From: Lingula anatina
Lineage: Eukaryota; Animalia; Brachiopoda
Reading direction: 5' to 3'
Assembly (NCBI GenBank): GCA_051362555.1
Contig: CM120647.1
Location: 20,312,651-20,376,650 of the forward strand
DNA length: 64,000 bases
Positions 7,513 to 34,314 of the stretch are shown piece after piece. A program made the translations under genes and the position numbers. The notes beneath the pieces are model-generated. The model made no database searches. It was not told where the DNA came from and saw only the letters and a list, made by a program, of their open reading frames with translations. Numbering within the stretch: position 1 is the first letter of the stretch; every line of letters begins with the position of its first letter.

Positions 7513-10235
7513 TTAGACCTTCGGGCGAGCGGCGTAAGCCCCTGAAAGTAAAAAAAGTGGTTAAAATAAGCTTGTAAGAGAGCTCTAAAATACGGTTATT
7601 TAAAGTCAACGCGAAAAACATTGTACTTGTTTCAAAACACCTACAGATCTTTACCACGCCCAAACATCCTCCCCAACCCTTGGATTCCAACACCGGACAC
7701 AGATGTTACACTACCAAATTTTGTTTCAATAACACAATAAACAGCAAAAACTTTGGCTTTGAAGTATCCCTGAACAGATGGCCATGGACTTACCATATCT
7801 ATCGCAGTCTGGATGCTTTGTGTAAATTCCAGCATCGGCTTTGTCACGAGCGCACGCTGGAATCAGAAGATAAAAGCTGCGGCCAATTCAAAGTCACATC
7901 ATGAAGCAACAACATATTATGTAGACGCCTGAGCAACATCAAAGCAATGAATGACGTCACAATGACGTCATGTTTCTTTTCGACACTTAACCTACGATAC
8001 TTTGGGACATAAAGATTATCTAAAAGAAATGTCGCACAGGGGTCTACTCTCCTTTTTTGGGCTGGGCGAAGCCACCAAGTTATAGCAATTGCAATGAAAC
8101 TAATCATTTGTGAAACGTTAAACTCTCAAGCCAAGCCGTGAGGAAGACAGGTCTCGTAAAGCAACAAATCTCGCGCGAGATTTCAAACGTAAAGTCAATA
8201 GTAACAGCTCAGTTATAAAACATAAACGCATATACTCACAGCAGTCATGACGGACCCATCTTTGTTTCATAACATAGTCCGCCAGTCGGACCCCACATTC
8301 ATCTACACAATAACTCCTGAAACGATACAAAGCTAGATTACGCCACTTCCCGAGGACTGGCCAAACTATTCCGACCACTGTTTCAGTGTACTTTTTTAGA
8401 CTAATAGCAGGATTTTATATTATATTATTTATCTGTGTTAATAGGACAGGGCAGCGTGCGTGTGCATGCACGTGTGTGAGTGCGTACATGTACGTGCTTG
8501 CGTGCGTGCGTTTTTGTGAGGTTGTATACACAGTATGGGCGGCGGTTTATACAAAAATGCAAAACACGATTAGTCGTCATCGTTATCAGATCAGTCGAAA
8601 TGAAAACACGATTAGTCGTCGTCGTTATCAGATCAGAAGGCAAAATACGACTAGTAGTCGTCAAAACGCAACTAGTCATCAAAACGCAACTAGTCATCAT
8701 CAAAACGCAACTAGTCATCATCAAAACGCAACTAGTCATCAAAACGCAACTAGTCATCATCAAAACGCAACTAGTCATCATCAAAACGCAACTTGTCATC
8801 AAAACGCGATTTGACGCCAGATGGCGCCCATTGTACGAACATCTAGGCCAAGTCACATGATCCACAGTGATCAAAATGGCGGACGTTATTGAAGCAGCAT
8901 TATCATATTCCTCGCTCGAACTCGAGAATTATCTCTACGCGTACAATCTAATAATGATATTATATATATAATAATATCTGGAACTTGTGAAATGAGTACA
9001 ACAATAAAGCAGTGCTTCACAAGTGTGTGTTTTTGTTTTTTTTTTAATTTATAACATGTCCAAATTATTTAATAAATTATTTAATTATTTATTATTTCGA
9101 GAATTATCTCTACGCGTACAATCTAATAATGATATTATATATATAATAATATCTCGAACTCGAGATAATTCTCGAGTTCGAGCGAGGAATATGATAATGC
9201 TGCTTCAATAACGTCCGCCATTTTGATCACTGTGGATCATGTGACTTGGCCTAGATTTTCGTACAATGGGCGCCATCTGGCGTCAAATCGCGTTTTGATG
9301 ACAAGTTGCGTTTTGATGATGACAAGTTGCGTTTTGATGACGACTAGTTGCGTTTTGATGACTAGTTGCGTTTTGACGACTACTAGTCGTATTTTGCCTT
9401 CTGATCTGATAACGACGACGACTAATCGTGTTTTCATTTCGACTGATCTGATAACGATGACGACTAATCGTGTTTTGCATTTTTGTATAAACCACCGCCC
9501 ATAACACAGTATATATGTGTCCGTTTGCAACTGTATTTGTGCATTCAAGTCCCTGTGAGTGTATTTACCCCACCTTCAATAATTGCTAACCGCGCTCTAG
9601 TATCTATCTCAGCATTTTCTCAATCTATCGCGCTACTCGGTCGTAAAGGTTTTCCTGCTCGAGCAAATCGGGGTGACTGTCGCTCCTCCACCAATTAATG
9701 AACCGAGCAAATAATTTCTGCTTCTCCTTCCATATTAGAAATTATAAATAACATCACGCGTGAAAATCTCTCAACTCACATAGAACCTCTGTTTTGCTTC
9801 ATGGCAAACGTGCCCTCGGGGGTACAGATTGGCCGTTCTCGGCCAAGCGCAGGTGGTAAAGCGTCAAATTCTGCCTCCTTCTCCTTGCACGTTTTGGGAC
9901 ACTGTCCTGCAAACGATTTAAAAATGCACAAAATTTAAAAAAGCGATAACTCACAATCAAAAAGCGCCGAAGTCGATGTGGCTGCAGCATGCGGGCATCA
10001 TGGTTAACTCGTGTTTGCACGTGTTTATAGTGTGTGTAGAATTCGACTCATCAAACAATTTTTAAATTTTTAAATTTGACGAAAAAAAAAACATTTCTTA
10101 GCAATTGTGAAATTTTATGCTAAAACTTCAAAGAAGTTTTTTTTCTTTTTTAAGTTTTCGGTAGTATAAATATGCTCTTTCTATACCTGCGTATACAGCA
10201 CCAACCACACAAATGACGACAACTAAGAACTTCAT
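7513..10235 (-). CDS. Secreted thyroglobulin type-1 domain protein (thyropin-like), copy 1, 114 aa
   Basis: Exons 10235-10187, 9906-9780, 8316-8240, 7856-7794, 7541-7513 (49/127/77/63/29 nt, all GT-AG). Protein MKFLVVVICVVGAVYA-GQCPKTCKEKEAEFDALPPALGRERPICTPEGTFAMKQNRGSMSYCVDECGVRLADYVMKQRWVRHDCSCARDKADAGIYTKHPDCDRYGAYAARPKV*. Signal peptide plus C..PxCxxxGxFxxxQ..YCVDxxG TY signature. Confidence 0.88.
8534..9503. mobile_element. Non-autonomous palindromic DNA transposon, IS3EU-like, in intron 2 of thyropin copy 1
   Basis: Termini TATGGGCGGCGGTTTATACA...TGTATAAACCACCGCCCATA, 6-bp TSD ACACAG (8528-8533 and 9504-9509), ~350-400 bp inverted arms with internal 18/21-bp repeats (caaaacgcaactagtcat[cat]). 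Site is empty in units 3 and 4. TAY..RTA ends with a 6-bp TSD are the IS3EU hallmark. Confidence 0.85.
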
Positions 10236-10318
10236 CTTCAACCAGGTATTCTACCAAAGTGGGTACTTGTCTCCTTTCTGACGGCTGTCAATGTATCTGG
10301 CTCTCTATTCTATGTCCC

Positions 10319-10328
10319 GTTATATAAA
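10319..10328 (-). promoter_or_regulatory. Candidate TATA box of thyropin copy 1 (equivalents at ~17890, ~29360, ~34400)
   Basis: TTTATATAA on the minus strand ~85-90 nt upstream of the ATG, retained as TATATA in all four copies, followed ~25 nt later by CCAG(T/A)T. Confidence 0.5.
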
Positions 10329-11952
10329 CTGTACGCATCTTCCCTTAATGGGGCACGGCATAATATTAACTGGATATTACCGGTTTGAGCTACTGAAAAC
10401 CGGTATATTACTCTCAATCAAGCGTATAATAGCCCCAAATGTAGTAGTCTAATCAAGTAATTAGGAAATATTGACGCACCCGGGACCTCTTTCCTAAAGT
10501 ATTTTGCTATACGGAGGAACTAACAGAGAACCGCTCTACAACATATTTACAATTGACATAAAGTGATGAATCCAATTGAATATAATAACAGTTAAAACGG
10601 AAAAAATGCTAAGCATTAATTCGAATGATGTTTTATATAACCTTCATCATCTAAAATTCAGGCTTTCATTCGTTTCAAATGAGATAATATCTATATAATT
10701 TCGTGGTCATACGGTAATTTACTCCCAGTACGTTTATCGAGGGTATCTTTAATTCGGACATTAAAAAACCGAAACAGTACTGTAATTTGATCGACATTAG
10801 TTCCAACCCTATTTGAATCATCTAGTAGCCCTTGAATCATCAAATCTATATCTATGACACTATTTCCTCCCCCCTTTTTTGTTTTGTTTGAAAGCGTGTT
10901 TTTCCCTTAAAACGTCTAGCTTCAGTCGGTTCGCATCGCGGCATTTATCTTTTTTTTTTAAAACCCGTTGCATTAAATCAGTAACATAATCGATCAGGAT
11001 TTTCAATCATTAAATCGGGACATTTGCAATAGAGAAGGTTCAACCTTTTTGCCCCCTCCCCCTTTGCCCAGTGGTGTCATTCTAGATCCGCGGACCCCTG
11101 TATTTGTATCATGGCGGTGGGGAAATATAAAGAAGATGAGGACAATTTTATCTCCACCTGCGGATGCTCTTGTCTATTCCGGTCCATACTGGGACTCAGT
11201 TACAAATTCATAAGTTTATATAAAGGTAAGCTCGATGAAAAGTTCAGGAGCAAAAAAAGGTGCCATCCCATTAAAAAAAGGAACAACCCAGTCACGTGAG
11301 TGAAGCATACATTTCATTTATAAAATATATATATATATATATATGTATAATCTAGACATGTCCTATTATATGTACTGTTTTAAACTGTAGTGTACACCAA
11401 TATGGAAATAAATCAACAATAATTGAAAAGAGATAAAAAACAGTTTAAAAGATATGTGCCATAACCCGTAGACAAGCTGTAAGAAGCAAAAAAAAGATGA
11501 TAAATAAAAAAATGAAAGAAATACTGACACCGTTTCTGCAGATTTTATTCAAGATAATGAAAAATCTGTTTTCCACGTACACTGCAAACTTATCAATATG
11601 AAGAAAATATATCAACCTAATTGGTCCTAGATGACTATGGTAATTGTCTTAAACTAACTGCAGTGCATTTCTAAATCCTTCCTGCCTACGTGTAGAATTT
11701 TCCTATTTTCCTCACGTAACATTTTCTTCTGTCAAGGAATTCCATTTCCTAATGAAAAGCTGCCAAAGCATATTTCAAAAACGCAGCTAAAACTGATTAA
11801 GCGTCATTAAATTTATAAGTTACCGTTACCGAGTAAAGTCGACCAATATTTTGACAAAAAAAATGGAAATGTCAATGATTCCTCCCTGCGAAATCTAGAA
11901 CTGATTATATTTGGTCTTTGGTCAAGATAATGGAAGTATTTTTGACAGTTAC

Positions 11953-12013
11953 TTAGAGTGGTGTAAGGGTCGCCGTGTGTCCATCCCAACAGTGACCCCT
12001 GGTCTGGTCACAC
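11953..12013 (-). pseudogene. Orphan duplicate of the terminal exon of gene A (unit 1)
   Basis: Intact acceptor ttag|G, reads CDQTRGHCWDGHTATLTPL*; homologous to 36722-36788. Confidence 0.8.
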
Positions 12014-12672
12014 CTAACACAATGAAAACAAGATATAATTTAGTTCCAACACAGCTGTCACACCTAACACAATGAAAACAAGATATAAATTAGTTCCAAC
12101 ACAACTGTCACACCTAACACAATGGAGCCAGGCTGCAAAAACGTCACCTGTTGTGTTTGAGACGGATTTCATTCCAAACAAGACGTCCCTATTTTGCCGA
12201 TGATATTTCACTCCTAGAAATTATTTCGGACATAGTATACTCTCTGTTTTTCGAAATAAGTTGACATTTTACAGGTCAAACATTAACTAGCTAGATTATT
12301 TTGTTACTGTTGTCAGAGACTTCATGTATGCCATAGAACTGGGACTTACATGTATGTTTAATTCTTTTTTCATTGTCATTAAATGAATTTGATGAATTTT
12401 AAGAACATTTCCTGATTCACTGCCAATTTAAAAATCGTAAGAAAAAACTCATCAAGATTTGAAGTATTTTTCCAGTCAATCCTTTCAGTGGGTTAAAGAA
12501 AAAGTAAAAAAAAAAGTATACAAAATATACTGAGCAGAAAAAGATGACGTCGATTTTATTGAGATGAATTTGAAAAACATTAATGTAAGTGGACGAAAAT
12601 TAAATATGTGAAAATAAATCTATTCTTATGAAGACCTTTTCTTATTGTACTGCGAGGAATTCAAAAGTTCGT

Positions 12673-12773: not shown

Positions 12774-15700
12774 TTAAGGGATCTAGGATATTAATGAAAA
12801 AGTCCAAAACTAATGCAGCTAATTAAATTTCCTATTAATAGTCCGGTGGCTTAGGGCCAAAAAAAAAAAAAAAAAAAACGGCCAAATTGTGACACGGCGG
12901 ATAAAAGCACCAAATTTTGCATGTGGGAACCTTTTGACATACTTAATCTAATTAAAGCCGTAGCCCACGGAAAAAATTTACCGTTTGGCCAAAAAATCCA
13001 AAATGGCCGCCAATTTGTGAAATTATGTAGAAATATATACATACCTATGTAGATTTTTATCAAATAAAGTATTTTCTCAATGTTTTCCACATCCTTATTA
13101 CCCATATTATGCATATATGTCAGATAACAAACGAGTGTCCTTGTACTTTTTGAAAAATCCAAGATGGCCGCCGTATGGCATAGGAATACTAGAACTTGTA
13201 CAAGGGTTTTCAACTAATGCCAACTAGGAAGATGCATTGCCCACTATCTAATTATTTTTGTTTCTGAGTGCCGTATTACACAAAGAATATATTTGTGGTG
13301 AGTAACTAACCTTTATTCTCAGGCATTTCGAGAAAAATCCAAGATGGCCGCCATATCAAAGGAATACTTGTATACACATAGGGCTTCTTCCGCCATGGAG
13401 ATATAATATTAATTGATAAATTAGGTTTGTTGCTTAGTATTCTCCACATCTTTTTAATCCACATAATATATATGTGGTGAGAATGTTATGTGTATCCTTT
13501 TTGAAAACAAAACAAAACAAAATGGCTGCCATTAGCCATAGAAGGTGGGGTTCAGTTAATACCTGCGAGAGATAGGCTTCCATTTAAAATGAAGCTACAT
13601 TCAGTTATTTTTCTGTTTTTTTATTATTATCATTATCCCATGATACATATCTGTTAGGTAATTAATGTCCATGTTTGATCATTTTGGGGAAATCCAAGAT
13701 GGCCTTCTTTTCCCCATAGGAAAACTGGTGCATTGGATTTTATAGGCACTTCTAAGGCAAATGAGGGCAATCATGATATTTTGTCAAAATACTTAAGGGT
13801 ACACACTTGTTACCCACCAGACAGATATCTCAAAGTCCAAAAAGAATGTGGGAGATACCGAAAAACAAAATTCATTTTATATTGAACCCAATGTCTCTCT
13901 GGCAGTAGTTGACTGTACTATTCCTATTGTGAATTGCAGCAATCTTGAATTTTATCAAATACGCAACATTCACACTTGCTAGACACCAGATTTATATAGA
14001 GTAAGGTTAATAAGGATGTTAACATGTTTGAACATCAAACGGCTTTATTTCATGTTGGAATCAATGTCTGAACTATTCCATTAATTGACACCTATGTGCA
14101 TTTGAATGATATATTCCTACGGTAACTGGCAGCTATCTTGGGTTTTCTCCGAATAGTACTCAAAGATACATACACTTTCTACACACACAGAGTCTTTCAT
14201 CGGGATAAATAGGATATAAAATACATTTAAAAACGATCTAAAGTTAACTACATTTAAATTACATTACATTTAAATTGTACTTTAAAGTGTATCTCTGGCA
14301 TTATTTGATTATGTGTAGTAATATTCTAATGACAAAAGGCAGACATCTTGAACTTTTTTCAGAATACCCAAAGATACATACATGCTACAGACCAGGTATA
14401 CACCACAGGGGTAATAATAAATGGAATGAAATACGTAAATTATTTTTAAAACAAACCCATGGTAATGTAATTGTATAATAAACCATATGCCTCTCTAGCA
14501 GCAATTGAAAGCCAACCATTAGTATTCCTATGTCAAATTGTAGCTATCTTGGATTTTCTCAGAATATCCAAGGATGCACACTATTTACCCACCAGATATA
14601 TATCATAGGACTAATAAGGATGGGCAAAACTTGATAAGCAAACACAATTTCACCCTGGTAGTAGATGAAAAGTCATGGATGTGCAGTTGTAATTCCAGTA
14701 GTATTCCTATGGCCAATGACAGCCATCTTGCATTTTCTCAAAATGATAAAACATGCACATTTATTACCTGCTAGATATGTATCACAGTGTAATAATAATG
14801 TGTAAAACACTGAAAAAATAAACTGAATTTGATAGTGAATTATGTTTTTCCTAGCTGGCATTAATTCCAACCCTTTGTAATACTAGAAGCATTCCTATGA
14901 CATATGGAGGCCATCTTGGATTTTCTCAAATTGCCCAAGAATACATGTTAGTTACTCACCACATACATATTGTGTGGGTGGAAAGGATGTGGAAAACACT
15001 CAGAAACAAACTTAATTTGATGGTGGAAAATTAATCTTTCCAGTTGCCATTAGTTGAATCCCCCGTTTACTAGAATTCCTGTAGCACATGACAGCCATCT
15101 TGGATTTTCCAAAATGCCCAAGAGCACTTCGTGGTTACTTACCACAAACATATTATGTGGGTAACAAAAATCTGAGAAACAGACTTAATTTGATAGTGGA
15201 AAACGTATCTTTCTAGCTGGTATTAGTTGTGCACCAGTATTCTTATGACTGTTTCTATGGCATATGACAGCCATCTTGAATTTTTTCAAAAAGTCCAAGG
15301 GAATTTGTTTGCTTTCTGACATATATGAATTAAATGGGTAATAAGGGTGTGGAAAACTCTGAGAAAATAATTTATTTGATAAAAATCAACATAGGTATGT
15401 ACATATTTCTATAGAATTCCATAAATTGGCAGCCATTTTGGATTTTTTGAAGAAACGGTTAATTGTTTGAGAGGGCTACGGCTCTGATTTGATTTAGAAT
15501 GTCAAAAGGTAACTACATGCCAAATTTGATGCTTTTATCCGCCGTGTCACGAATTTTTCCTTAAGCCACCGGACTATAACTAAAGGATATGGTCTAGCAA
15601 GCAAAAAAATTTTGTAGTCACAGTGTAACACGAGTGACGTAATATCAGCGTTTTGGGGCTAAAATTGTCATTTTTTAATCAAGATTTTCTCTTAAACAAG

Positions 15701-16054: not shown

Positions 16055-17803
16055 TTAGACCTTCGGGCGAGCGGCGTAAGCCCCTACAAATTAAAAAAGT
16101 GGTTAAAATGAGCTTGAGAGAGAGAGAGAGGTTTAAAATACGGTTATTTAAAGTCAAGGCGAAAATCAAACATTTTACTTTTTTCAAAACACCTACAGAT
16201 CTTTACCACACGCAAACATTCTCAACAACCCTTGGTTTCCCACACCGGACACAGATGTTACACAACCAAATTTTGTTTCAATAACACAATAAACAGCAAA
16301 AACTTTGGCTTTGAAGTATCCCTGAACAGAGGGTCATGGACTTACCATATCTATCGCAGTCTGGATGCTTTGTGTACACACCAGCATCGGCTTTGTCACG
16401 AGCGCACGCTGGAATCAGAAGATAAAAACAACGGTCAGTCATATGAAGCAACAACACGACGTTATGTGGACGTCTGAGCAACGTCAAAGCGGTGAATGAC
16501 GTCACGATGACGTCATATTCCTTTTGGACAGATTAACCTACGATACTTTAGGAAATAAAGGTTACCTAAAAGATATATCGCACATCGGCCTACTCTCAAT
16601 TTTAGGGCTGGGCGAAGCCACCAAGGAATAGTAATCGCAATGAAACTAATTGTTGGTGACAGTTTAACCTTAAGCCAAGCAAGAGGAATGCAGGTCTCGT
16701 AAAGCAACAAGCCTCGCTCGAGATTACGAACATGTAGTCAACCGACTTTACGATCTTATCTCAAAATATTAACGGTTCAGTTATAAAACATAAACGCATA
16801 TACTCACAGCAGTCGTGAGGGAGCCATCTATCTTTCGTTTCATAGTCCCCCAGTTCAACCCCACATTCGTCTACACAATAACTCCTGGAACGATACAAAG
16901 CTAGATTACACCACTGCCCGGGAACTGGCCATACTTTGCCGCCCACTGTTTCAATGTACTTTTTTTAGACAAGGATGTCAGATTATTTTATTAAACTGTG
17001 TTAAGAGAACAGGGTGTGTGCATGCACGTGTGTGAGTGCGTGTACTTGCGTGTGTTTGCTTGCATGTGTAATTGTGAGTTTGTATATGTATATGTGTCCG
17101 TTTTTACCTGTATTCGAGCCCTTGTGCGTGTATTTACCCCGCCTTCAATAATTCTCTATCTCAGCATTATCTCAATCTATCGCCCCGCTCGGTCGTCACG
17201 GTATTCCTACTACAGCAACTCGGCGTGACTGTCGCTCCGCCACCAACACCAACCAATTAATGAACCGAGCAAATAATTTCTGCCTCTCCTACCATATTAA
17301 CATCTATAGATAATATTACGCGTGAAAATCTCTCAACTCACTCAGACCCAAGGTACTGCTTCTTGTCAAACGTGCCCTCGGGGGTACAGATTGGCCTGTC
17401 CCGGCCAGCCAAAGGAGGTGAAGCGTCAAAATCTGCCTCCTCCTCCTTGCACGTTTTGGGACACTGTCCTGCAAACGATTTAAAAATGCACAAAATTTAA
17501 AAAAGCGATAACTCACAATCAAAAAGCGCCGAAGTCGATGTGGCTGCAGCATGCGGGCATCATGGTTAACTCGTGTTTGCACGCGTTTATAGTGTGTGAA
17601 GAATTCGACCAAAAACCCAATAAAGCCATGGACAGAAATTGTTTTGAGGAACAAAAGTATTTCTTCGCAATTGTGAATTTTTATGCCAAAACTTCATAGA
17701 AGTTTTTTTTTCTTTTTTTAAATTTTCGGTGGTACAAGTATGCTCTTACTATACCTGCATATACAGCCCCAACCACACAAATGGCGACAACTAAGAACTT
17801 CAT
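16055..17803 (-). CDS. Secreted thyropin-like protein, copy 2, 114 aa
   Basis: Exons 17803-17755, 17468-17342, 16884-16808, 16408-16346, 16083-16055. MKFLVVAICVVGAVYA-GQCPKTCKEEEADFDASPPLAGRDRPICTPEGTFDKKQYLGSESYCVDECGVELGDYETKDRWLPHDCSCARDKADAGVYTKHPDCDRYGAYAARPKV*. Confidence 0.88.
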
Positions 17804-19110: not shown

Positions 19111-19153
<43 letters not shown>

Positions 19154-19525
19154 TGACACAATACTTCACAAATACAGCATATATGTAGTACAAAAAAGAA
19201 AACTACAGTCACTCCCACTCTCACACTTAAGAGAAAATATACTATGTTATATTAATTAAATTTTTTATGGTACGTTAAACATTCAGGTTGATAAGGAATT
19301 GATAACATTTGAAGTGTACCAGAGTGACTTATCTATTTTTATCACAATTTTTTAATTTTTATTTAAATAAAGGCTCCTGCACACACTCACACATACCCAA
19401 CCTCACACACACTAGCACGCACACCCTATTTATATACAAACAAATATATACAGATTTATATACATGTATAATTAGAAGTAAACTAATAAGTAATAAAAAG
19501 TAAAAAATACAAACTGAAACAATAA

Positions 19526-22500
19526 CTATATGTTCTGATTTGCTATACTCATTAAAGTAGATTTAAGTTCCGGTTTAAGTAGCAATCTAGAATTTAATTT
19601 AGTACTTTTGAAAATAAAAAATTTAGAATGAAGAATTACAAGGTTTTTAACTTTATCACTACTTCCAAAAATGAGATCAGATGGCAGTATTTTGAAGACA
19701 TTTCCTGTAATTTGACTTAACCATAGTTCAACCTCTGTCCAGAAAAGCTTCACTAATTCACAGTCCATAAATAGATGCTTTATCGTTTCAGCCTGTTTGT
19801 TGCACAAACTACAAAGAGGATTCTCGATCATATGGTATTTAAACAGCAACTCTTTGGTACCCAAAATTCTGTGGATTATTCTGAAATTAAACCATTTCAA
19901 TCTTATTTCTTTAACTTTAACCAGGGCATTGGTATACGTTAGTTGCCAGTCTATTTTGATACCTAACTCTTGTTCCCATTTTTCTTCACATTTTGGTCTC
20001 TGACCGAGACTTTTTATGCAAATGTCATATATGCTTCTACATCCTTTTTTATCGTTACATAATGTTTTAACTGGGTTAGAGATCTGCGGTAATGGCAACA
20101 TAACGTTAGCATTCAGAAGTCTAAGCACAGGGTAGGCACCAAAGGTTGCTTGCCTTAATCCATAATACAGAGTAAAAGGAATCTGAATTTCAAACTCTTC
20201 TACAAAATAGTCAAATGATAGGAATTTCCCTTCGCTGTTAAATAAATCTTGGATAATATGGAAACCTTTGTCATACAAATTCTTATAAAAAATTCTTCTG
20301 CCATCTGATAATACAGCAGGATTATACCAGATTGGAGTTCTGAGAATGACATCGAGACTATTACTTGCCATTTTTTCTGAATATTCTGAAAAGTATATTA
20401 AGATTTCTCTCCAAAAAGAATTGCGAATTTTAGATATTTCCTTTGCATAAGTTGGTCCAAACTGAGTCAATCTCTGAACATCCGATCCAGTGGCTTCAGC
20501 AAAAAGTTTATTTGTTATTTTATCAGAGGTTATCAATCTGCGAATCCAGGAAATTTTTAGCGCCCTCACAAAGGATTCTAAATGTATCATACGGCAACCT
20601 CCCTGTTTATAGTCCTGAATAAGTGTTTTACGGGCAACTTTTTCTGTTTTACCGTGCCAAATAAATTTGAATAGCATATTTTGTAAATTTTGCAGCCACT
20701 CTTTGGTAGGGCTCGGAAGAGAGAGCAGTAGGTGTGTTATTTTTGAAATAATTAAAGACTTCACTACAGTAATCTTACCTAAAGTAGTAATATTTCTTTT
20801 TCCCCACCGATACATTTCTAATTCTATTTGCTGAAGCTTGCTGGTATAATTCAACTCATTCATTTGTTCTAAATCAGCTGTGAAAACTATACCTAATATA
20901 TTAAAAGGGTTGTTAGTCCATTTAAGATTGTTATCTTTACAGATAATTTCTCTACTGTTGGCCTTTGAACCAATCCATATGGCTTTAGTCTTACTAATAT
21001 TGGGCTTAAGCCCCGAGTACTTGGAAAACTGAAACAGTAAGTCGAGTGCACTCTTTAAACTTTTCTCTGAGCCATCTAAAAAAAGCACTGTGTCATCTGC
21101 GTACTGAGATAGTTTTACTTCCACCCTCCCCAAGTTTATTCCTGTTATGTTATTGTTTTGTCTTATAAGAATAGCTAGGATCTCAACACATAAATTAAAA
21201 ATGTAGGGTGATACAGGGTCTCCCTGTCTGCAGCCTCTGCCAATTTTAAAGAAATTAGAGAAAATACCATTTTGTATTACACATAATTCAGGATCATTAT
21301 ATAGAACATTTATCCATTTTTTAAAGTCATCACCAAAATTAAAAAACGAGAGAGTTTTTTTCATAAAATCCCAAGATATGCTATCAAATGCTTTAAGGAA
21401 ATCTACTGAGAGTATCATTCCTGGGATTTTTTTATCTTTTGTAATTTGCAAAACATCATAAACAATTCTAGTATTCTCACCAATGAACCGTCCTTTCAAA
21501 AATCCCGTTTGATTTTCATGTATAAGCAAATGTAAAACTTTTTTTAATCTATTTGAAATACAAGCAGAGAGGATTTTATATGAGATGTTTAAGAGAGATA
21601 TCGGCCTCCAATTTTCTAAAAATTCCCGTGGTTTATCCCCTTTGGGTAAAATTGAAATAACCCCTTGTTTCTGGGTAATGGACAAGTGACCTTTAGCAAA
21701 CCCCTTATTATATGATCTCACAAGAAACGTTCCTATATCATTCCAGAAAAATTTAAAAAATTCGACAGAAAAACCGTCGGGGCCAGGTGATTTGTTGTTC
21801 TTCATACTTTTTAAGGCTATTAGAGCTTCCTGATAAGTAATTGTTCCCTCTAATTGCCTAGCCGTATTGTCATCTAATATGTTTATTTTGTCTTTATCGA
21901 TTATATTATTCCAATCAAAAATTTCAGAGTAGTTATCTTGTTTCGAGTAAAGATGGTTATAGAAATCTCTGATTTCTTTCAAAATTTCTGCTTGATCGGT
22001 AATAATACGACCTGTCTCCCTTATAATTTTCTTTACAGTTTTATTTACAAAATTTCTTTTTTCCAGGGATAAAAAATATTTAGTTGGTTTTTCCCCTTCC
22101 TCTGACCATTTTACTTTGGTTCTTATATAGACCCCTCTAATATGTTCATGTCTCATTTCTTCTTCCTCTAGTTTCAGAGTCTGGAGCTGGTTTTCTAAAT
22201 TCGATGTGGGGTTATCTGTATACATGGAATATAATTTCTTAATTTTTTCAGCCAGGGTCTTCATTCTTATATTTTTCTCCTTTTTCTTTGCTGAACTATA
22301 GGCAATGGTATAGCCTCTAACCTGTAATAATATCTGTTCAAAAAATGCTTGCTCATCCACAAGAAAGTCCAGATCATTGTCACTAATTTTACATAACTCT
22401 GCTTTGTTATATGGACTGGCACAATATTGATATTTTAGATCCTCTATTATTTTCTTTACTCCTCTTATATACTCAAAATCTTTTAGAAGGCTGTTATTCA

Positions 22501-23248
22501 TTTTCCAGAAACCTTTCCCTTTTTTCTGCTCAGAGAGAGTAAGTTTCAGATGTATCATTGCGTGGTCTGTTCGGTATCCATAAGTTATCTCAGTTTGATC
22601 AACAAGATTCATGAGTTCGTTAGAAATAAGGAAAAAGTCAAGCCTAGCTCTTTTTACAGGGTTATTAGAGGACCAAGTGAATTGTTTCCTCTGTTCATGT
22701 TGAGCTCTCCATGGGTCTATCAAATTGAATTTAGTTTTCAGCCGTAAGAGAGCATCTCTTGCTTGGGGATTATTAACACGTCTGTAATTATAATAATCTA
22801 AATCACTATCTTGAACTAGGTTAAAGTCCCCCATCATTATCACAAAGTGACCCTCAAAATCTTCTATGATATTTCCGAGGTGAACAAAAAATTCCGGGTC
22901 ATCTTTGTTTGGTCCATATAAATTAATAAGTAAAACAGAGTAATTATTTTCAACTTCAATTTCGATAATCAAATAATTTCCATCTTTTCCGAACAACGTT
23001 CTCATTATTTTAAATTCAAAGTTATTGTTGAAAAGGATTGCCGTACCTCTTGAATTTGATTTGCCAGGGCTCAGAAGGGTTTTATATCCCCACAAGGAAT
23101 GTACTTTTGATTTGTCCCTCTCTGTAAAGTGGGTATCTTGGATACAATATATTGAGTATTTCTGTTGTTTCAAATAGTTCAGGACGTCTCTTCTCTTTTG
23201 AGTACCTCCAAGACCCCTACAATTCAAACTAACGATATGCAAACTCAT
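19526..23248 (-). CDS. LINE ORF2: APE endonuclease, reverse transcriptase and C-terminal zinc knuckle, 1240 aa
   Basis: SLNCRGL, IQDTH, MMGDFN, RLDFFL, TDH (APE); KSPGPDG, WRPISLLN, GCRQGDPVSP, QYADD (RT); CSLC..ETIKHLFMDC (zf-RVT). Confidence 0.97.
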   Translation of the reverse strand: MSLHIVSLNCRGLGGTQKRRDVLNYLKQQKYSIYCIQDTHFTERDKSKVHSLWGYKTLLSPGKSNSRGTAILFNNNFEFKIMRTLFGKDGNYLIIEIEVENNYSVLLINLYGPNKDDPEFFVHLGNIIEDFEGHFVIMMGDFNLVQDSDLDYYNYRRVNNPQARDALLRLKTKFNLIDPWRAQHEQRKQFTWSSNNPVKRARLDFFLISNELMNLVDQTEITYGYRTDHAMIHLKLTLSEQKKGKGFWKMNNSLLKDFEYIRGVKKIIEDLKYQYCASPYNKAELCKISDNDLDFLVDEQAFFEQILLQVRGYTIAYSSAKKKEKNIRMKTLAEKIKKLYSMYTDNPTSNLENQLQTLKLEEEEMRHEHIRGVYIRTKVKWSEEGEKPTKYFLSLEKRNFVNKTVKKIIRETGRIITDQAEILKEIRDFYNHLYSKQDNYSEIFDWNNIIDKDKINILDDNTARQLEGTITYQEALIALKSMKNNKSPGPDGFSVEFFKFFWNDIGTFLVRSYNKGFAKGHLSITQKQGVISILPKGDKPREFLENWRPISLLNISYKILSACISNRLKKVLHLLIHENQTGFLKGRFIGENTRIVYDVLQITKDKKIPGMILSVDFLKAFDSISWDFMKKTLSFFNFGDDFKKWINVLYNDPELCVIQNGIFSNFFKIGRGCRQGDPVSPYIFNLCVEILAILIRQNNNITGINLGRVEVKLSQYADDTVLFLDGSEKSLKSALDLLFQFSKYSGLKPNISKTKAIWIGSKANSREIICKDNNLKWTNNPFNILGIVFTADLEQMNELNYTSKLQQIELEMYRWGKRNITTLGKITVVKSLIISKITHLLLSLPSPTKEWLQNLQNMLFKFIWHGKTEKVARKTLIQDYKQGGCRMIHLESFVRALKISWIRRLITSDKITNKLFAEATGSDVQRLTQFGPTYAKEISKIRNSFWREILIYFSEYSEKMASNSLDVILRTPIWYNPAVLSDGRRIFYKNLYDKGFHIIQDLFNSEGKFLSFDYFVEEFEIQIPFTLYYGLRQATFGAYPVLRLLNANVMLPLPQISNPVKTLCNDKKGCRSIYDICIKSLGQRPKCEEKWEQELGIKIDWQLTYTNALVKVKEIRLKWFNFRIIHRILGTKELLFKYHMIENPLCSLCNKQAETIKHLFMDCELVKLFWTEVELWLSQITGNVFKILPSDLIFGSSDKVKNLVILHSKFFIFKSTKLNSRLLLKPELKSTLMSIANQNI

Positions 23249-24127
23249 AGATTAAATAACAATTTTGTGAATTATAATACTTTCAAGTAATCCAGTACGC
23301 AGATGACATCCATAGATTGTGTATATCTATGGAATATATGGCTCATTATATCGGTGTAAAATATTTTGTAGAGTAAGCAAGTCCACATCACAGTTATACA
23401 TGCAGATATCATGATAATATATTCATTCATATCTGGTGTAGTGCTCCAATTATGCATCACTTCACAAACATACAACCCCATACATACATTAACCCACATG
23501 TCATTTGACCCTAAACATTGCTTGATCAGGATGCTCTCACCTATGAGGTTTGCATACATCACACATTCATACACATGACACACACTCACATAGACAAAAA
23601 TTTTGTTCGTAAAACAAAAAACAAAGTAAGATAACATAAATACAATCATCCCACACATTTCGAGTATCAGTACTTGCAGCATGTTCTGAAAATTGAGGTA
23701 CCTAATGATCCCACAGAATATCAAATTGTAACATTGATAATATTTTGCATAATGTTAAGGATGAGCACCAATTCAAAAAATATTTTTACAACATTAATAT
23801 TTGAATGTTAGGGATCAGCACTCACCTTATCTTTATTGGTCTATGTAAAGGATATTCTGTACATACCAGTGAAAGCATTATGTGGGTTATTCTCCTTCCC
23901 AAAAACAAGGTTTATTGGAAGATAAGAAGAACCTTATGATTATTTCTCTATTAATCGTAAAGCATGAGAAGTAGTAACAATTGGGATCTACATGTGTACC
24001 TAGAAAATATGGAAGAAGAAAGTTTATAAACATAAAGTGATAAAGATAACCAAGCAATTACATTGCATTATATCTAGGCACTCTAGGCTTTACATATTAG
24101 AAAACAAAACATTAGTCATTTTTTCTC

Positions 24128-25048
24128 CTAATTGGACCTTTTCTTTTGTTTCAGTTTCTCCTCCAAATTATCACATATGTCTACCTTTATTCTGTTTCCA
24201 TTTTTTAACTGGCAGTATACATTGCAGTTAAAGAACCATGCACTTTCAACGTGCTCATGTTGTTTTAGTTTGTTCAAGAGAGTTAAGTTTTTTAATGTTA
24301 TGTCATCATACAGACGTGCACCAGATTTCAGTTCTCTCTTTTTCCGCATGATTGTTCTCTTGATATCTGTGTTTCTAAGTTTTATGATCACTGGTCTTGG
24401 GGATCCTTGTTTACCGGGTATGCGATGTATTGCCTGGATATCAGTAGGCTCAATATTCAGTTTGGCTTCTTTTTGCAGCATATCAATAAAGATTTCTCTC
24501 AGGTTTTCCTCCTTTTTTTCTATTATGTTCAAGGCCCTTATATTAGTTTTCCTTGAGTACTGTTCATTATGATTGCAAGAGCGCATGGTTTCTTTACTGT
24601 AGTAATCATTTTGTTTTAGCAGTTCATTCATTTTTTTCATTTCTTGGTCTTTCTTTCTCATGACTTCTTTCAACTGCTCATTTTCCATCTGAAGACTATC
24701 CACCTGATCTTGCAGTTTTGCAGCACGGGTCTCAGATTCCATTTTTAGACAGTCGAATTTCTGCATAAATTTTGCATCCATTTCTGATACCATGTTATTA
24801 AGAAGTCTTTCAACCACCCTTGTTACTGTAATTTCTAAATCCTCTTTTCTAATAGTTTCTTTAATCTCATTTTTTATTTCAGACAGCTCATGCATGAGCA
24901 TTTGCAATTCTTCTGCACTGGAGTTTGCCACCTCCGAATGAGGTCTTTTAGGTGCTGAAGTTATTGTTTGTGTTTTGCTCTTTGTATTGCTGCTTGCGAG
25001 AAACCTGGACATGGTCCTGTCATCAGCCTTGGTAGGTTTCTGGGCCAT
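24128..25048 (-). CDS. LINE ORF1: coiled coil plus RRM-like nucleic-acid chaperone
   Basis: First ATG at 25048 (MAQKPTK...), heptad-rich middle region, EQYSRKTNIR and IQAIHRIPGK..PRPVIIK motifs typical of L1/Tx1/CR1-type ORF1p; lies upstream of ORF2. Confidence 0.88.
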   Translation of the reverse strand: MAQKPTKADDRTMSRFLASSNTKSKTQTITSAPKRPHSEVANSSAEELQMLMHELSEIKNEIKETIRKEDLEITVTRVVERLLNNMVSEMDAKFMQKFDCLKMESETRAAKLQDQVDSLQMENEQLKEVMRKKDQEMKKMNELLKQNDYYSKETMRSCNHNEQYSRKTNIRALNIIEKKEENLREIFIDMLQKEAKLNIEPTDIQAIHRIPGKQGSPRPVIIKLRNTDIKRTIMRKKRELKSGARLYDDITLKNLTLLNKLKQHEHVESAWFFNCNVYCQLKNGNRIKVDICDNLEEKLKQKKRSN

Positions 25049-25893
25049 GATAGCTTTGTAATCAGTAGGAGCTAGTGAGATGTCACAATAGTGCACAGTG
25101 TATAGAAAGGCCCATTACCTATATGACTGTTACAGCTTCAGGGGGCCAATTATGTCTTTGACAATGACTATTGCTGAGTAGCACTCTTTTATATAGCTAC
25201 ACTAGAGAACTGCTCAACCACCTATTTTCATGCATATACTTGCGTAAGTCCAAGCCTCCAGATTTAAAGTTCTTAGAAAATGTCACTTGCCTTTCATGAT
25301 CTATACCAGTGATGCCTACCACTACTTTCCAGAAACATTCATGAACATGTCTGCAAGACCTTAAAACTCAGGCATCTACATTTCTCACAATATTAGACAC
25401 CAATGTGAGAGACTCTTTTCTTTTGTATGTCAGGTGTTACCTCGACCTTGACCTCAAGTCACGTACATTGCAAACTTATCAGTATGAAGAAAATATATCA
25501 ACCTAATTGGTCCAAGATGACTATGGTAATTGTCTTAAACTAACTACAATGCAGTTTTAAACCCTTAATGTCCACGTGTAGAATTTTCCTCACATTACAT
25601 TTTTCTTCTGTCAAGGAATTTCATTTGCCAATGAAAAGCTGCCAAAGCATATTTCAAAAACGCAGCCAAAACTGATTAAGCGTCATTAAATTAATAAGTT
25701 ACCGTTACCGAGTAATTGATAAAGTCGACTAATATTTTGACCAAAAAAAAAAAAAAAAAAAAAAAGAAAATGAAAATGTAAATATGTCCTTCCTGTGACA
25801 TCTATAACTGATTATATTTGGTATTTGGTCAAGATAATGGAAATATTTTTGACAGGTTTATTTTCCCGGAAGAAAACCTCTCCAATCTCTCAG

Positions 25894-25960
25894 TTATTTA
25901 GTTGTTGGTGTAAGGGTTGCCGTGTGTCCATCCCAACAGTGACCCCCGGTCTGGTCACAC
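25894..25960 (-). pseudogene. Orphan duplicate of the terminal exon of gene A (unit 2)
   Basis: Intact acceptor and frame: CDQTGGHCWDGHTATLTPTTK*. Confidence 0.8.
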
Positions 25961-27495: not shown

Positions 27496-27558
27496 TTAGA
27501 CCTTCGGACGAGCAGCGTAAGCCCCTACAAATTAAAAAAGTGGTTAGGTTAAAATGAG

Positions 27559-27596
<38 letters not shown>

Positions 27597-29272
27597 TTAA
27601 AATACGGTTATTTAAAGTCAAGGCGAAAAACAAACATTGTACTTTTTTCAAAACACCTACAAATCTTTACCACACGCAAACATTCTCAACAACCCTTGGT
27701 TTCCCACACCGGACACAGATGTTACACAACCAAATTTTGTTTCAATAACACAATAAACAGCAAAAACTTTGGCTTTGAAGTATCCCTGAACAGATGGCCA
27801 TGGACTTACCATATCTATCGCAGTCTGGATGCTTTGTGTACACACCAGCATCAGCTTTGTCACGAGCGCACGCTGGAATCAGAAGATAAAAACTGCGGTC
27901 AGTCACATGAAGCAACAACACGACGTTATGTTGACGTCTGAGCAACGTCAAAGCGGTGAATGACGGCACAATGACGTCATATTCCTTTTGGACAGATTAA
28001 CCTACGATACTTTAGGAAATAAAGGTTACCTAAAAGATATATCGCACATCGGCCTACTCTCAATTTTAGGGCTGGGCGAAGCCACCAAGGAAAAGTAATC
28101 GCAATGAAACTAATTGTTTGTGACAGTTTATACTTAAGCCAAGCCAGAGGAATGCAGGTCTCGTAAAGCAACAAGCCTCGCTCGAGATTACGAACATGTA
28201 GTCAACCGACTTTACGATCTTATCTCAAAATATTAACGGTTCAGTTATAAAACATTAATGCATATACTCACAGCAGTCGTGAGGGACCCATCTATCTTTC
28301 GTATCATAGTCCTCCAGTTCAACCCCACATTCGTCTGCACAATAACTCCTGGAACGATACAAAACTAGATTACCCCACTGCCCGAGGACTGGCCATAATT
28401 TGCCGCCCTCTGTTTCACTGTACTTTTCTAGACTAGGGTAGCAGATTATTTTACTAAACTGTGTTAAGAGAGCAGGGTGTGTGCATGTACGTGTGTGAGT
28501 GCGTGTACTTGCGTGTGTGTTTGCGTGTATGTGTATTTGTGAGTTTGTATACACAGTGTATGTGTCCGTTTGTACCTGTATTCGAGCCCTTGTGCGTGTA
28601 TTTACCCCACCTTCAATAATTGCTAACCGCGCTCAAGTCTCTATCTCAGCATTTTCTCAATCTATCGCGCCGCTCGGTCGTCATGGTATTCCTACTACAG
28701 CAACTCGGCGTGACTGTCGCTCCGCCACCAACACCAATCAATTAATGAACCGAGCAAATAATTTCTGCCTCTCCTACCATATTAACAACTATAAATAATA
28801 TTACGCGTGAAAATCTCTCAACTCACCCAGCCCCAATGTACTGCTTCTTGTCAAACGTGCCCTCGGGGGTACAGATTGGCCTTTCCCGGCCAGCCAAAGG
28901 AGGTGAAGCGTCAAAATCTGCTTCCTCCTCCTTGCACGTTTTGGGACACTGTCCTGCAAACGATTTAAAAATGCACAAAAATTAAAAAAGCGATTACTCA
29001 CTATCAAAAAGCGCCGAAGTCAATGCTGCAGCATGCGGGCATCATGGCTAACTCGTGTTTGCACGTGTTTATAGTGTGTGAAAATTCGCCTAAAACCCAT
29101 AAAGCCATGGACAGATATTGCCTTGAAGAACAAAAGTATTTCTTCGCAATTTTGAATTTCTTTGCTGAAACTTCAAATATATTTTTGTACAGTTTTGGTT
29201 GCACAAGTATGCTCTTGCTATACCTGCATATACAGCACCAACCACACAAATGGCGACAACTAAAAACTTCAT
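27496..29272 (-). CDS. Secreted thyropin-like protein, copy 3, 114 aa
   Basis: Exons 29272-29224, 28953-28827, 28348-28272, 27872-27810, 27524-27496. MKFLVVAICVVGAVYA-GQCPKTCKEEEADFDASPPLAGRERPICTPEGTFDKKQYIGAGSYCADECGVELEDYDTKDRWVPHDCSCARDKADAGVYTKHPDCDRYGAYAARPKV*. Confidence 0.88.
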
Positions 29273-30998: not shown

Positions 30999-31065
30999 TT
31001 ATTTAGTTGTTGGTGTAAGGGTTGCCGTGTGTCCATCCCAACAGTGACCCCTGGTCTGGTCACAC
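30999..31065 (-). pseudogene. Orphan duplicate of the terminal exon of gene A (unit 3)
   Basis: Intact acceptor and frame: CDQTRGHCWDGHTATLTPTTK*. Confidence 0.8.
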
Positions 31066-31683
31066 CTAACGCAATAAGAACAATTATAAATGAGTTCTAA
31101 CACAGCTGTCACAACTAACACAATAAGAACAAGATATAAATTAGGTCTAACACAGCTGTCACACCTAACACAATGATAACACTATGTAAATAAGTTCTAA
31201 CACAGCTGTCACACCTAACACAATGAAAACAAGATATAAATGAGTTCTAACACAGCTGTAACACCTTATACAATGGAAACAAGATATAAATGAGTTCTTA
31301 CACAGCTGTCACACCTAACACAGTGGAACCAGTTTAGAAATTCTCTGCAGGGCTGGAAAAACATCACCTGTTGTGTTTGAAATGGATTTCATTCCAAACA
31401 AGAGGTCCCTATTTTGCCGGTGATATTTCACTCCTAGAAATTATTTCGGACATAGAATATTCTCTGTTTTGCCAAATAAATTGACAGTTTTACAGGTCAA
31501 GTAATATCTAGCTAGATTTAGTTGTTAATGTTGCCAGGAACTTATAGTATGTTATGGAAATGGAACTTATGTAGAATTTTTTTATTTTCATAAAAATGAA
31601 TTTGGTGAATTTTAAGAATATCCTGATTCACTGCCAACTCTGACAATTAAAAAAAATTAGAAGAAAAAACTGGTATCAAGATA

Positions 31684-31910
31684 CACACATTGGACAATAG
31701 AAGCGTCACCCCTACTGAACCAATACTTTGGAGGAGAAAAATGACTGTGGAATGATATGCTCCTTGTATCATTTTATAAACATCAAATTTCACAAAAAGA
31801 CCAACAATACGGTTCCATGGTACAGCGGGTTTATACTCATTAGTCACATTATAAGTAGACCAGGCATTATAACTTTGATTACTCTCATTTAGGGGGTGAC
31901 ACTTCTTGTC
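31684..31910. mobile_element. Tc1/mariner-like MITE (unit 4, same site as in unit 3, right end eroded)
   Basis: TA|CACACATTGGACAATAGAAGCGTCACCCC...GGGGTGACACTTCT; same flanks as 26629-26850. Confidence 0.75.
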
Positions 31911-32566
31911 AAAGTTTTTGTCCTTTCAATGTTTTATAGAAAAAGTATACAATGTGTACTGATCAGAGAGAGATGACGTCGATTTTATTGAGATGAATTT
32001 GAAAAAGGTTAATGTAAGTGGACGAAAATTTAAAATATATAAATTATAATATAAATTTATAATGTGAAAAAATTTTTATTCTTTTGAAGACCTTTGCTTA
32101 TTGTATTGCGAGGAATTCAAAACTTTGTGTTAATGTTTTGTTCATTTGTATATTTTATGTTTGGCAAACACTATACTTTATTGGGGCAATAGACCTAAAC
32201 ATCATTTAATTAGGCAACTAGGATAAGTAAAATTTGTTTACTATGGAAAAATCTTTGAACACATTTCTGTTTGACGATCAACACAATGCGTTTTTAACGC
32301 GTGTCTCAAGAAGTTAAATTCTAGATCAAGCAGAGTTGCCTATTCGATGTAAGAGTATGAAAGTGAATGGACAACTATTTTACTCGAGATTCATTTTATT
32401 ATTGCTATTCTCCAACGAAGTTTTTCACATCATAGGTCATTTATTTGATAAATATTTGATTCATTAAAACTTAAATCTAAGCAGCAGTTTTTGAAGAATT
32501 GGATCTCATTCGTTTCCACTGAGTTCTATTGATTCAGAAGTAATTTTTGGCGTGTTCCATCTCATT

Positions 32567-34314
32567 TTAGACCTTCGGACGAGCAGCGTAAGCCCCTACA
32601 AATTAAAAAAGTGGTTAAAATTAGCTTGAGAGAGAGAGAGAGAGAGATTTAAAATACGGTTATTTAAAGTCAAGGCGAAAAACAACATTGTACTTTTTTT
32701 TCAAAACACCTACAGATTTTTACCACACGCAAACATTCTCAACAACCCTTGGTTTCACACACCGGACACAGATGTTACACTACCAAATTTTGTTTCAATA
32801 ACACAATAAACAGCAAAAACTTTGGCTTTGAAGTATCCCTGAACAGATGGTCATGGACTTACCATATCTATCGCAGTCTGGATGCTTTGTGTACACACCA
32901 GCATCGGCTTTGTCACGAGCGCACGCTGGAATCAGAAGATAAAAACTGCGGTCAGTCACATGAAGCAACAACACGACGTTAAGTTGACGTCTGAGCAACG
33001 CCAAAGCGGTGAATGACGTCACAATGACGTCATGTTTCTTTTGGACAGATTAACCTACGATACTTTGGGAAATAAAGATTTTCTAAAAGAAATGTCGCAC
33101 ATCGGCCTACTCTAAATTTTAGGGCTGGGCGAAGCCACCAAGGAATAGTAATTGCAATGAAACTAATCGTTGGTGAAAGTTTAACCTTAAGCCAAGACAG
33201 AGGAATGCAGGTCCCGTAAAGCAACAAGCCCCGCTCGAGATTACGAACATGTCGTCAACCGACTTTACGATCTTATTTAAAAATATTAACGGTTCAGTTA
33301 TAAAACATAAACGCATATACTCACAGCAGTCGTGAGGGAGCCATCTATCTTTCGATTCATAGTCCGCCAGTTCAACCCCACATTCGTCTACACAATAACT
33401 CCTGGAACGATACAAAGCTAGATTACACCACTGCCCGGGAACTTGCCATACTTTGCCGCCCACTGTTTTACTGTACTTTTTTTGACAAGGATGTCAGATT
33501 ATTTTACTAAACTGTGTTAAGAGAACAGGGTGTGTGCATGCACGTGTGTGAGTGCGTGTACTTGCGTGTGTTTGCGTGCATGGGTATTTGTGAGTTTGTA
33601 TACGCAGTATATATGTGTCCGTTTTTACCTGTAATCGAGCCCTTGTGCATGTATTTACCCCACCTTCAATAATTGCTAACCGCGCTCAAGTCTCTATCTC
33701 AGCATTTTCTCAATCTATTGCGCCGCTCGGTCGTCAAGGTGTTCATGCTCCAACAACTGGGGGTGACTGTCTCTCCGCCACCAACACCAAACAATTAATG
33801 AACCAAGCAAATAATTTCTGCCTCTCCTACCATATTAACAACTATAAATAATATTAGGCGTGAAAATCTCTCAACTCACCCAGCCCCAAGGTACTGCTTC
33901 TTGTCAAACGTGCCCTCAGGGGTACAGATTGGCCGTTCCATGCCAGGCTTTTTAGGTGAAGCGTCAAATTCTGCCTCTTTCTCCTTACACGTTTTGGGGC
34001 ACTGTCCTGCAAACGATTTAAAATACACAAAATTCTAAAAATAAAAAAAGTACCGATGTCGATGTGACTGCAGAATGGGAACTTGTGTTTTCAGGTGTTT
34101 ATAGTGTGTGAAAATTCGACCAAAAAACTAATAAAGCCATGGACAGATATTGCTTTGAAGAACAAAAATATTTCTTCGCAATTGTGAATTTTTTTGGCTA
34201 AAACTTCAAAAAAATTTTTTTCCTTTTTTTTAATTTTCGGTAGTACAAGTATGCTCTTACTATACCTGCGCACACAGCACCAACCACGCAAATGACGACA
34301 ACTAAGAACTTCAT
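32567..34314 (-). CDS. Secreted thyropin-like protein, copy 4, 114 aa
   Basis: Exons 34314-34266, 34006-33880, 33401-33325, 32925-32863, 32595-32567. MKFLVVVICVVGAVCA-GQCPKTCKEKEAEFDASPKKPGMERPICTPEGTFDKKQYLGAGSYCVDECGVELADYESKDRWLPHDCSCARDKADAGVYTKHPDCDRYGAYAARPKV*. Confidence 0.88.

What the first reader, a model, noticed from the sequence alone, without database searches (positions are those of the whole stretch)
7513..34314. Hidden four-gene array of small secreted thyropin-like proteins, all copies intact
Seen: each duplication unit contains five short minus-strand exons (49/127/77/63/29 nt) with GT-AG sites that splice to a 114-aa signal-peptide protein. All four copies keep frame, splice sites and 8 mature cysteines, although introns and flanks carry indels and up to ~9 kb of TE insertions. 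The ORF track never assembles these genes. Known: C..PxC..GxF..Q..(W/Y)CVD..G..C is the thyroglobulin type-1 signature, and small TY proteins (equistatin, p41 invariant-chain fragment, saxiphilin inserts) inhibit papain-family cathepsins. Inference: a recently amplified, probably unannotated family of secreted protease inhibitors for defence, mucus, egg or salivary secretion.
Basis: partly seen in the sequence, partly recalled or inferred. Interest (0 to 1): 0.9.

Follow-up and report, generated by a model that had tools for sequence, protein, structure and literature searches.

The report
Brachiopod truncated thyropin gene array
Four neighbouring intact gene copies in the lamp shell Lingula encode small, likely secreted proteins with one and a half thyroglobulin-type modules that are predicted to block cathepsin-type proteases, and the copies differ mostly at the predicted protease-contact surface.

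Summary
The array is real: four minus-strand five-exon genes, 16 of 16 introns GT-AG, each giving 114 aa with 8 mature cysteines. RNA reads splice all four introns of copy A; copies B-D are only weakly read. It is not hidden: RefSeq lists copies A, B and D as 'uncharacterized' Lingula anatina proteins. The protein is one type-1B thyroglobulin type-1 (Tg1) domain (Pfam PF00086 above cut-off; fold matches saxiphilin and p41), with an extra cysteine pair, a shorter central loop and the first half of a second Tg1 domain. It derives by truncation from a two-domain invertebrate family; its sister is a 148-aa Lingula protein. A complex prediction docks copy A in the active site of a stand-in cathepsin L (0.91; best control 0.51), possibly from memory of the solved p41 complex. 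Ten of 16 predicted contact residues vary among copies, against 13 of 82 elsewhere; positive selection is suggested, not shown. Verdict: new variant of a known kind, likely a thyropin (65%); tissue, target and activity untested. Interest 0.35.

The parts
7513..10235 (-). Copy A. Coding exons 10235-10187, 9906-9780, 8316-8240, 7856-7794, 7541-7513. 114 aa, mature pI 8.5; the well-read copy.
   Evidence: identical to P0004 (XP_013413638.1)
10236..10330 (-). Copy A 5' UTR and TATA-like box about 90 nt upstream of the ATG, kept in all four copies; 13 read ends at 10285 in run X14
16055..17803 (-). Copy B. Coding exons 17803-17755, 17468-17342, 16884-16808, 16408-16346, 16083-16055. Mature pI 4.8.
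   Evidence: 1 residue from P0002 (XP_013413639.1); few junction reads
27496..29272 (-). Copy C. Coding exons 29272-29224, 28953-28827, 28348-28272, 27872-27810, 27524-27496. Mature pI 4.8; no exact public record among those returned.
   Evidence: 4 C-like exon-3 reads in X13
32567..34314 (-). Copy D. Coding exons 34314-34266, 34006-33880, 33401-33325, 32925-32863, 32595-32567. Mature pI 5.7.
   Evidence: 2 residues from P0001 (XP_013413640.1); introns 2-4 spliced in a few reads
8534..9503 (.). About 0.97-kb foldback element inserted in copy A intron 2 only; spliced out correctly
12838..15576 (.). About 2.7-kb element with terminal inverted repeats between copies A and B
19115..25475 (-). Full-length LINE retrotransposon (open ORF1 328 aa and ORF2 1241 aa, poly(A) tail, about 17-bp target-site duplication) between copies B and C

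Best explanation
Four tandem Lingula genes encode small, likely secreted proteins whose single complete Tg1 domain is predicted to inhibit papain-family cathepsins by wedging three loops into the active-site cleft. Shown: the gene structures, splicing of copy A, the Tg1 match, and descent from a two-domain Lingula paralogue by loss of the last 35 or so residues. Predicted: residue 37 in loop 1 fills the S2 pocket beside the catalytic Cys and His, loop 2 covers the oxyanion side, loop 3 touches the primed-side tryptophans. Inferred: secretion (hydrophobic N-terminus, no other hydrophobic stretch), four disulfides, a structural role for the half-domain tail, and different target preferences among copies (residue 37 is Leu, Ala, Ala, Pro; copy A is basic, B-D acidic).
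For: Pfam PF00086 above its 20.6-bit cut-off for the 3 public array proteins of 114 aa (23.3, 24.2, 22.0). AlphaFold2 model with a 14-row alignment, mean pLDDT 85.9, helix plus hairpin plus second helix; Foldseek matches saxiphilin and p41 (1icf_I, rmsd 2.9 over 65 columns). Loop-1 Gly38 and Pro42 invariant in 14 of 14 aligned rows, the motif flagged in thyropins (PMC10889554 section 2.6). Complex of copy A residues 17-114 with a metagenome cathepsin L (L025): score 0.91, best of 3 controls 0.51, runs agree in at least 98% of contacts, partner pLDDT at least 88; the mark was reached by 51 of 78 solved and 2 of 108 mismatched microbial pairs, and by 71 of 105 solved (39 of 65 without a like complex) and 2 of 126 unrelated eukaryotic pairs. 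The predicted contacts include catalytic Cys26 and His165. 10 of 16 contact residues vary among copies against 13 of 82 others (p 0.0003; within the domain 12 of 46, p 0.011). Small Tg1-only invertebrate proteins can inhibit: tick IrThy, Ki 27-795 nM.
Against: No assay. The p41-cathepsin L complex (1ICF) is solved, so the pass may be from memory; one control partner also scored 0.51; the protease is a stand-in from another organism and only copy A was folded. The fold ties inhibitors with non-inhibitors: Z 7.7 saxiphilin (rmsd 3.7, 73 aligned), 7.2 IGFBP C-domain (3.0, 67), 7.0 p41 (2.6, 63), 7.0 thyroglobulin (2.5, 74). Inhibition is confirmed for few Tg1 proteins (PMC7863939 passage). The central loop is 2 residues shorter than in both saxiphilin domains and matches some thyroglobulin repeats, and the signature Trp is Tyr. 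Loop pN exceeds intron divergence in 5 of 6 non-independent pairs but exceeds synonymous divergence significantly in 0 of 6, so relaxed constraint on surface loops explains the variation as well.
Confidence: 0.65

Rival explanations
1. A non-inhibitory secreted Tg1 protein: the loops bind another ligand (a hormone-like peptide, matrix, mucus or shell component, or a microbial surface), as in IGFBP C-domains, nidogen or thyroglobulin.
For: Fold ties with IGFBP and thyroglobulin; the family profile's best PDB sequence hit is thyroglobulin, with the same short hairpin; most Tg1 domains have no shown inhibition; some relatives add a cysteine-rich N-terminal module with no Pfam hit (P0024, P0030, P0035).
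Against: Confident canonical active-site pose; loop-1 Gly/Pro motif kept; the inhibitory tick IrThy C-domain appears to have an equally short hairpin (inferred from its Cys115 and Cys122 numbering); the locus names and 'thyroglob' were absent from the one held supplement of a Lingula shell proteome paper.
Confidence: 0.22
2. An inhibitor of a different protease class, such as cathepsin D, as for one equistatin domain.
For: Tg1 domains inhibit cysteine or aspartic cathepsins depending on the domain (PMC10889554 introduction); the altered central loop departs from the p41 type.
Against: The cathepsin L pose scored well; no aspartic protease was modelled, so this is untested rather than excluded.
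Confidence: 0.08
3. Part of the array (B and C above all) is an assembly artefact of two haplotypes, or B-D are young, nearly silent duplicates on the way to loss.
For: B and C are 96% identical in coding sequence; B-D get few reads in the 7 runs laid; intron 1 of B and D and introns 2-3 of C were not listed as joints; DNA read depth was not measured.
Against: B and C differ at 5.2% of intron sites with 11 indels; non-loop replacement rates are below intron divergence in 6 of 6 pairs; public records hold A, B and D as separate proteins on one 295-kb contig, though they may come from this same genome; D-type and C-type reads occur together in run X13.
Confidence: 0.05

Closest known systems
Lingula anatina LOC106170253 (XP_013405500.1, 148 aa; P0006) and the small two-Tg1 proteins of nemerteans and molluscs (Tubulanus 'equistatin-like', Mactra, Haliotis, Mytilus, Gigantopelta)
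   Same: Signal-like N-terminus, same first domain with 7-residue hairpin spacing, C-x-C linker, start of second domain; P0006 is 48% identical, shares the extra Cys19/Cys66 pair and is sister to the four copies (98/97 support).
   Different: These have a complete second domain; the array proteins stop a few residues after its second cysteine. None of these names rests on a shown function.
Saxiphilin Thy1-2 (type 1B Tg1 domain, bullfrog)
   Same: Best sequence and fold match in PDB; lacks the inter-strand disulfide as this domain does.
   Different: Embedded in a transferrin; hairpin 2 residues longer; keeps the Trp before Cys-Val; no extra cysteine pair.
p41 invariant-chain fragment bound to cathepsin L (PDB 1ICF)
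   Same: Same fold (Z 7.0, rmsd 2.6, 63 aligned) and same predicted three-loop contact (described).
   Different: Type 1A with three disulfides, single domain cut from a membrane chaperone; inhibition measured.
IrThy, tick two-domain thyropin (PMC10889554; PDB 8R6T)
   Same: Small secreted Tg1-only invertebrate protein with C-x-C linker and unusual disulfides; both domains inhibit cathepsins V, K and L.
   Different: Two complete type-1A domains; weak fold match to the NMR model (Z 2.0, rmsd 4.2, 61 aligned).

Membership tests
Thyroglobulin type-1 domain (PF00086) | Profile score above the curated cut-off | tested here: met
   23.3, 24.2, 22.0 bits against 20.6 for P0001, P0002, P0004; copy C itself was not scanned whole
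Thyroglobulin type-1 domain (PF00086) | Helix, loop 1, two-stranded hairpin, loop 3 fold | tested here: met
   Model H23-32, E53-56, E59-63, pLDDT above 90 over 21-110; Foldseek and VIA top hits all Tg1 proteins
Tg1 subtype 1A | Six cysteines including the inter-strand pair | tested here: not met
   No cysteines at the inter-strand positions in any copy
Tg1 subtype 1B | Four core cysteines, inter-strand pair absent | tested here: met
   Cys23, 44, 62, 84 align with saxiphilin Thy1-2; Cys19 and Cys66 are extra
Tg1 subtype 1B | Actual disulfide pairing | not testable with these tools
Thyropins (MEROPS I31) | Measured inhibition of a cysteine or aspartic cathepsin | not testable with these tools
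   Needs an assay
Thyropins (MEROPS I31) | Three-loop wedge filling the papain-type cleft | tested here: inconclusive
   Predicted with score 0.91 against best control 0.51, but a like complex is solved
Thyropins (MEROPS I31) | Loop-1 Gly and Pro | tested here: met
   Gly38 and Pro42 invariant in 14 of 14 rows (feature)
Thyropins (MEROPS I31) | Central loop and Trp-Cys-Val core as in p41 and saxiphilin | tested here: inconclusive
   Two residues shorter than saxiphilin, Tyr for Trp, Ala for Val in copy C; a short loop appears compatible with inhibition in IrThy (inferred from numbering)
Short two-domain invertebrate thyropins (IrThy-like) | Two complete tandem Tg1 domains | tested here: not met
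   Second domain ends after its second cysteine; one Pfam stretch only; no remnant of the lost half downstream of any copy
Secreted proteins | Cleaved signal peptide | tested here: inconclusive
   Hydropathy 3.2-3.4 in the first 20 residues, at most 0.6 after; no signal-peptide predictor or proteomics available

The most novel reading that the evidence does not exclude
A Lingula-specific one-and-a-half-domain thyropin was amplified and its copies were driven apart by selection at the protease-contact surface (S2-pocket residue Leu/Ala/Ala/Pro, basic versus acidic loops) to block different foreign or own cathepsins. This would be a natural specificity series for the Tg1 fold and the first functional handle on a widespread, untested short-hairpin family of lophotrochozoan Tg1 proteins.
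Probability: 0.25. Interest if true: 0.55.

Novelty: new variant of a known kind. Interest (0 to 1): 0.35.

Why it matters
Few Tg1 proteins have a shown inhibitory role, and invertebrate thyropins are little studied. Four natural variants with a fixed scaffold and different predicted contact residues would make it easy to test what turns a Tg1 domain into an inhibitor and what sets its specificity, including whether a type-1B domain with a short central loop works alone. It also corrects annotation: RefSeq treats copies A and B as isoforms of one locus, and an older record fuses two copies. It is not a new mechanism or system.

Tried and rejected
Pfam on single exons found nothing (0 of 9); the domain is split by intron 2. 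No whole genome was held, so other paralogues were seen only through protein databases. The run search listed no RNA holder; RNA evidence comes from laying same-species raw reads. Run X17 gave no listed junction and X12 only 2 reads on one. A single-sequence fold of P0002 failed (pLDDT 39.3) and was not used. The wide VIA search was not run, so folds outside Foldseek's list were not examined. ESM Atlas hits were Tg1 clusters at 0.90, 0.87, 0.86, a lead only. A 9-residue look-alike of the lost second-domain hairpin at 9007-9036 lies on the plus strand inside the foldback element of copy A only and was rejected as chance. P0003 (226 aa) was rejected as a real two-unit protein: it reads into intron 2 and fuses a D-like and a C-like copy; no joint from D to C was listed. 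Junction reads on copy C intron 1 (71) and copy B intron 4 (70) in X14 carry or adjoin A-type letters and were not counted as proof for C or B. Positive selection was tested and not established. Paper searches with zero hits: Lingula anatina + thyroglobulin, Lingula + equistatin (46), brachiopod + shell matrix + thyroglobulin (47), thyroglobulin type + positive selection + gene duplication + invertebrate (65); listings showed no title on these genes. Earlier scan notes: none.
Full report
Observation. A self-comparison of the window shows four related units between about 6.5 and 37 kb. Each holds five minus-strand exons of 49, 127, 77, 63 and 29 nt; all 16 introns are GT-AG and each copy gives 114 aa with cysteines at 19, 23, 44, 62, 66, 84, 86 and 102 after the signal-like region. 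Introns differ at 5-13% of aligned sites and carry 11-30 indels per pair in the 4 of 6 pairs counted, while the coding sequences have none; neutral mutation at those rates would rarely keep all features. The insertions are a 0.97-kb foldback element in copy A intron 2, a 2.7-kb inverted-repeat element and a 6.4-kb LINE.

Identity and annotation. A search with one exon returned a 114-aa Lingula anatina protein. Copy A is identical to XP_013413638.1, copy B differs by 1 residue from XP_013413639.1 (both LOC106175984, called isoforms) and copy D by 2 from XP_013413640.1 (LOC106175985). All are named 'uncharacterized' and had no precomputed Pfam entry. Copy C matched no returned record exactly (7 differences from the nearest 114-aa one). 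These records may come from this same genome. The genes are therefore annotated but unlabelled.

Expression. Seven same-species RNA runs from three studies were laid, about 6 or 25% of each. For copy A, introns 1-4 were skipped by 246, 173, 17 and 1 reads in X14, 45, 75, 80 and 70 in X15, 108, 165, 141 and 110 in X16, and 2, 0, 0 and 0 in X12. First mates lie on the plus strand, as expected for a minus-strand RNA in the usual stranded library. For copy D, introns 2-4 had 2-11 reads in some runs; of 10 exon-3 reads in X13, 4 carried C-like letters. Copy B introns 2 and 3 had 1-7 reads. X17 gave no listed junction. So all four junctions are shown for copy A only, and B-D are read weakly. Tissues are not given. 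DNA depth was not measured.

Domain. The three public 114-aa proteins pass the Pfam Thyroglobulin_1 cut-off narrowly. A 14-row AlphaFold2 model has mean pLDDT 85.9. Its top fold matches are saxiphilin, p41, thyroglobulin, IGFBP C-domains and Trop2/EpCAM, with the best Z values tied within 1. The domain lacks the inter-strand cysteines, like saxiphilin's type-1B repeat, adds Cys19 and Cys66, and has 7 residues between the conserved Gln and the Cys of the C-V motif against 9 in saxiphilin. Residues 85-106 are the helix and first loop of a second Tg1 domain, which then stops.

Origin. A full scan of 1.84 billion representatives gave 32 hits at E up to 0.001; I viewed 19 of the 31 others and looked up names for 20 of the 32. 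The closest are small proteins with two complete Tg1 domains from Lingula, nemerteans and molluscs. In a 25-row tree the four copies form one clade (100/99), sister to the 148-aa Lingula protein (98/97); deeper branches are unresolved. The array thus most likely arose by truncation of a two-domain ancestor within the Lingula lineage, then tandem duplication with copy A splitting first. Two other hits (P0025, P0034) also lack a full second domain and look like a mis-predicted end and a fragment, so uniqueness of the architecture is likely but not shown.

Mechanism. Thyropins bind papain-family enzymes with three loops (PMC7863939, passages; PMC6584486, passages and one section; PMC10889554, abstract, five sections including legends and table). 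Copy A residues 17-114 were folded with a cathepsin L-like enzyme from metagenome locus L025 (Peptidase_C1). Score 0.91, best of 3 controls 0.51; runs agreed in at least 98% of contacts; partner pLDDT at least 88. That mark was reached by 51 of 78 solved and 2 of 108 mismatched microbial pairs, and by 71 of 105 solved and 2 of 126 unrelated eukaryotic pairs. Contacts are residues 35-41, 56-59, 61, 75 and 77-79, against the cleft with Cys26, His165 and Trp187. Because the p41-cathepsin L complex is solved, this shows likeness to a known inhibitor pose, not binding. One unrelated partner also scored 0.51, and the enzyme is from another organism.

Divergence among copies. Variable columns are 17 of 36 in the three loops against 6 of 62 elsewhere in the mature chain (p 4e-5), and 10 of 16 predicted contacts against 13 of 82 (p 0.0003). 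The half-domain tail varies at 1 of 30. Copy A is basic (pI 8.5) and B-D acidic (4.8-5.7). Loop replacement rates exceed intron divergence in 5 of 6 pairs but not synonymous divergence in any; whole-gene dN/dS is about 0.4 among B-D. The scaffold is under purifying selection; the loops are either relaxed or positively selected, and four sequences cannot decide.

Literature. Four searches for these genes or this family gave no paper; five others gave listings without a title on them. In the one held supplement of a Lingula shell proteome paper (PMC13425148; passages and supplement search) the locus names and 'thyroglob' did not occur; the held supplement of the 2015 genome paper (PMC4595640; supplement search only) mentions the domain only for SPARC-related genes. 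Supplements or tables not held as text could still list them. The 2006 Tg1 superfamily survey, the 1999 p41 structure paper and a 2018 Lingula immunity paper were not read.

Verdict. A real, expressed, lineage-specific variant of a known domain family: likely a secreted thyropin with one working domain and a half-domain tail. The truncation and the contact-site variation justify 0.35.

Noticed in passing
window 19115-25475 (-): Full-length LINE with open ORF1 (328 aa) and ORF2 (1241 aa; endonuclease, reverse transcriptase, zf-RVT), poly(A) tail and about 17-bp target-site duplication; absent from the other units, so likely recent.
   Followed up: partly
window 8534-9503 and 12838-15576: Two non-coding inverted-repeat elements; the larger collects divergent RNA reads on both strands, probably from other genomic copies.
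   Followed up: partly
window 7794-7856, 8240 and 16346-16408: In run X14, 180 reads join a copy-A exon 3 to a B/C/D-type exon 4, with two kinds of exon 5 and 3' end; alleles, gene conversion or an A-like paralogue missing from this assembly.
   Followed up: no
window 12007-12124, 25954-26267, 31059-31322, 36782-36995: A 50-bp minisatellite upstream of each copy, with 2.4 to 6.3 units.
   Followed up: no
window 37244-43879 and 47296-54898 (-): Two tandem multi-exon genes, 37-66% identical over ten or more matching pieces, for a large protein with a signal-like start; four exon pieces scanned had no Pfam hit.
   Followed up: partly
window 56907-57284 (-): Exon-sized piece matching Pfam MIEAP (E 6.5e-8).
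   Followed up: no
P0024, P0030, P0035: Relatives with a cysteine-rich N-terminal module before two Tg1 domains; it recalls IGFBP or insect fungal-protease-inhibitor modules (recalled), but Pfam found only Tg1.
   Followed up: partly
L001 (metagenome locus): One open frame holds a papain-like domain followed by what looks like an aspartic-protease start (recalled motif).
   Followed up: no
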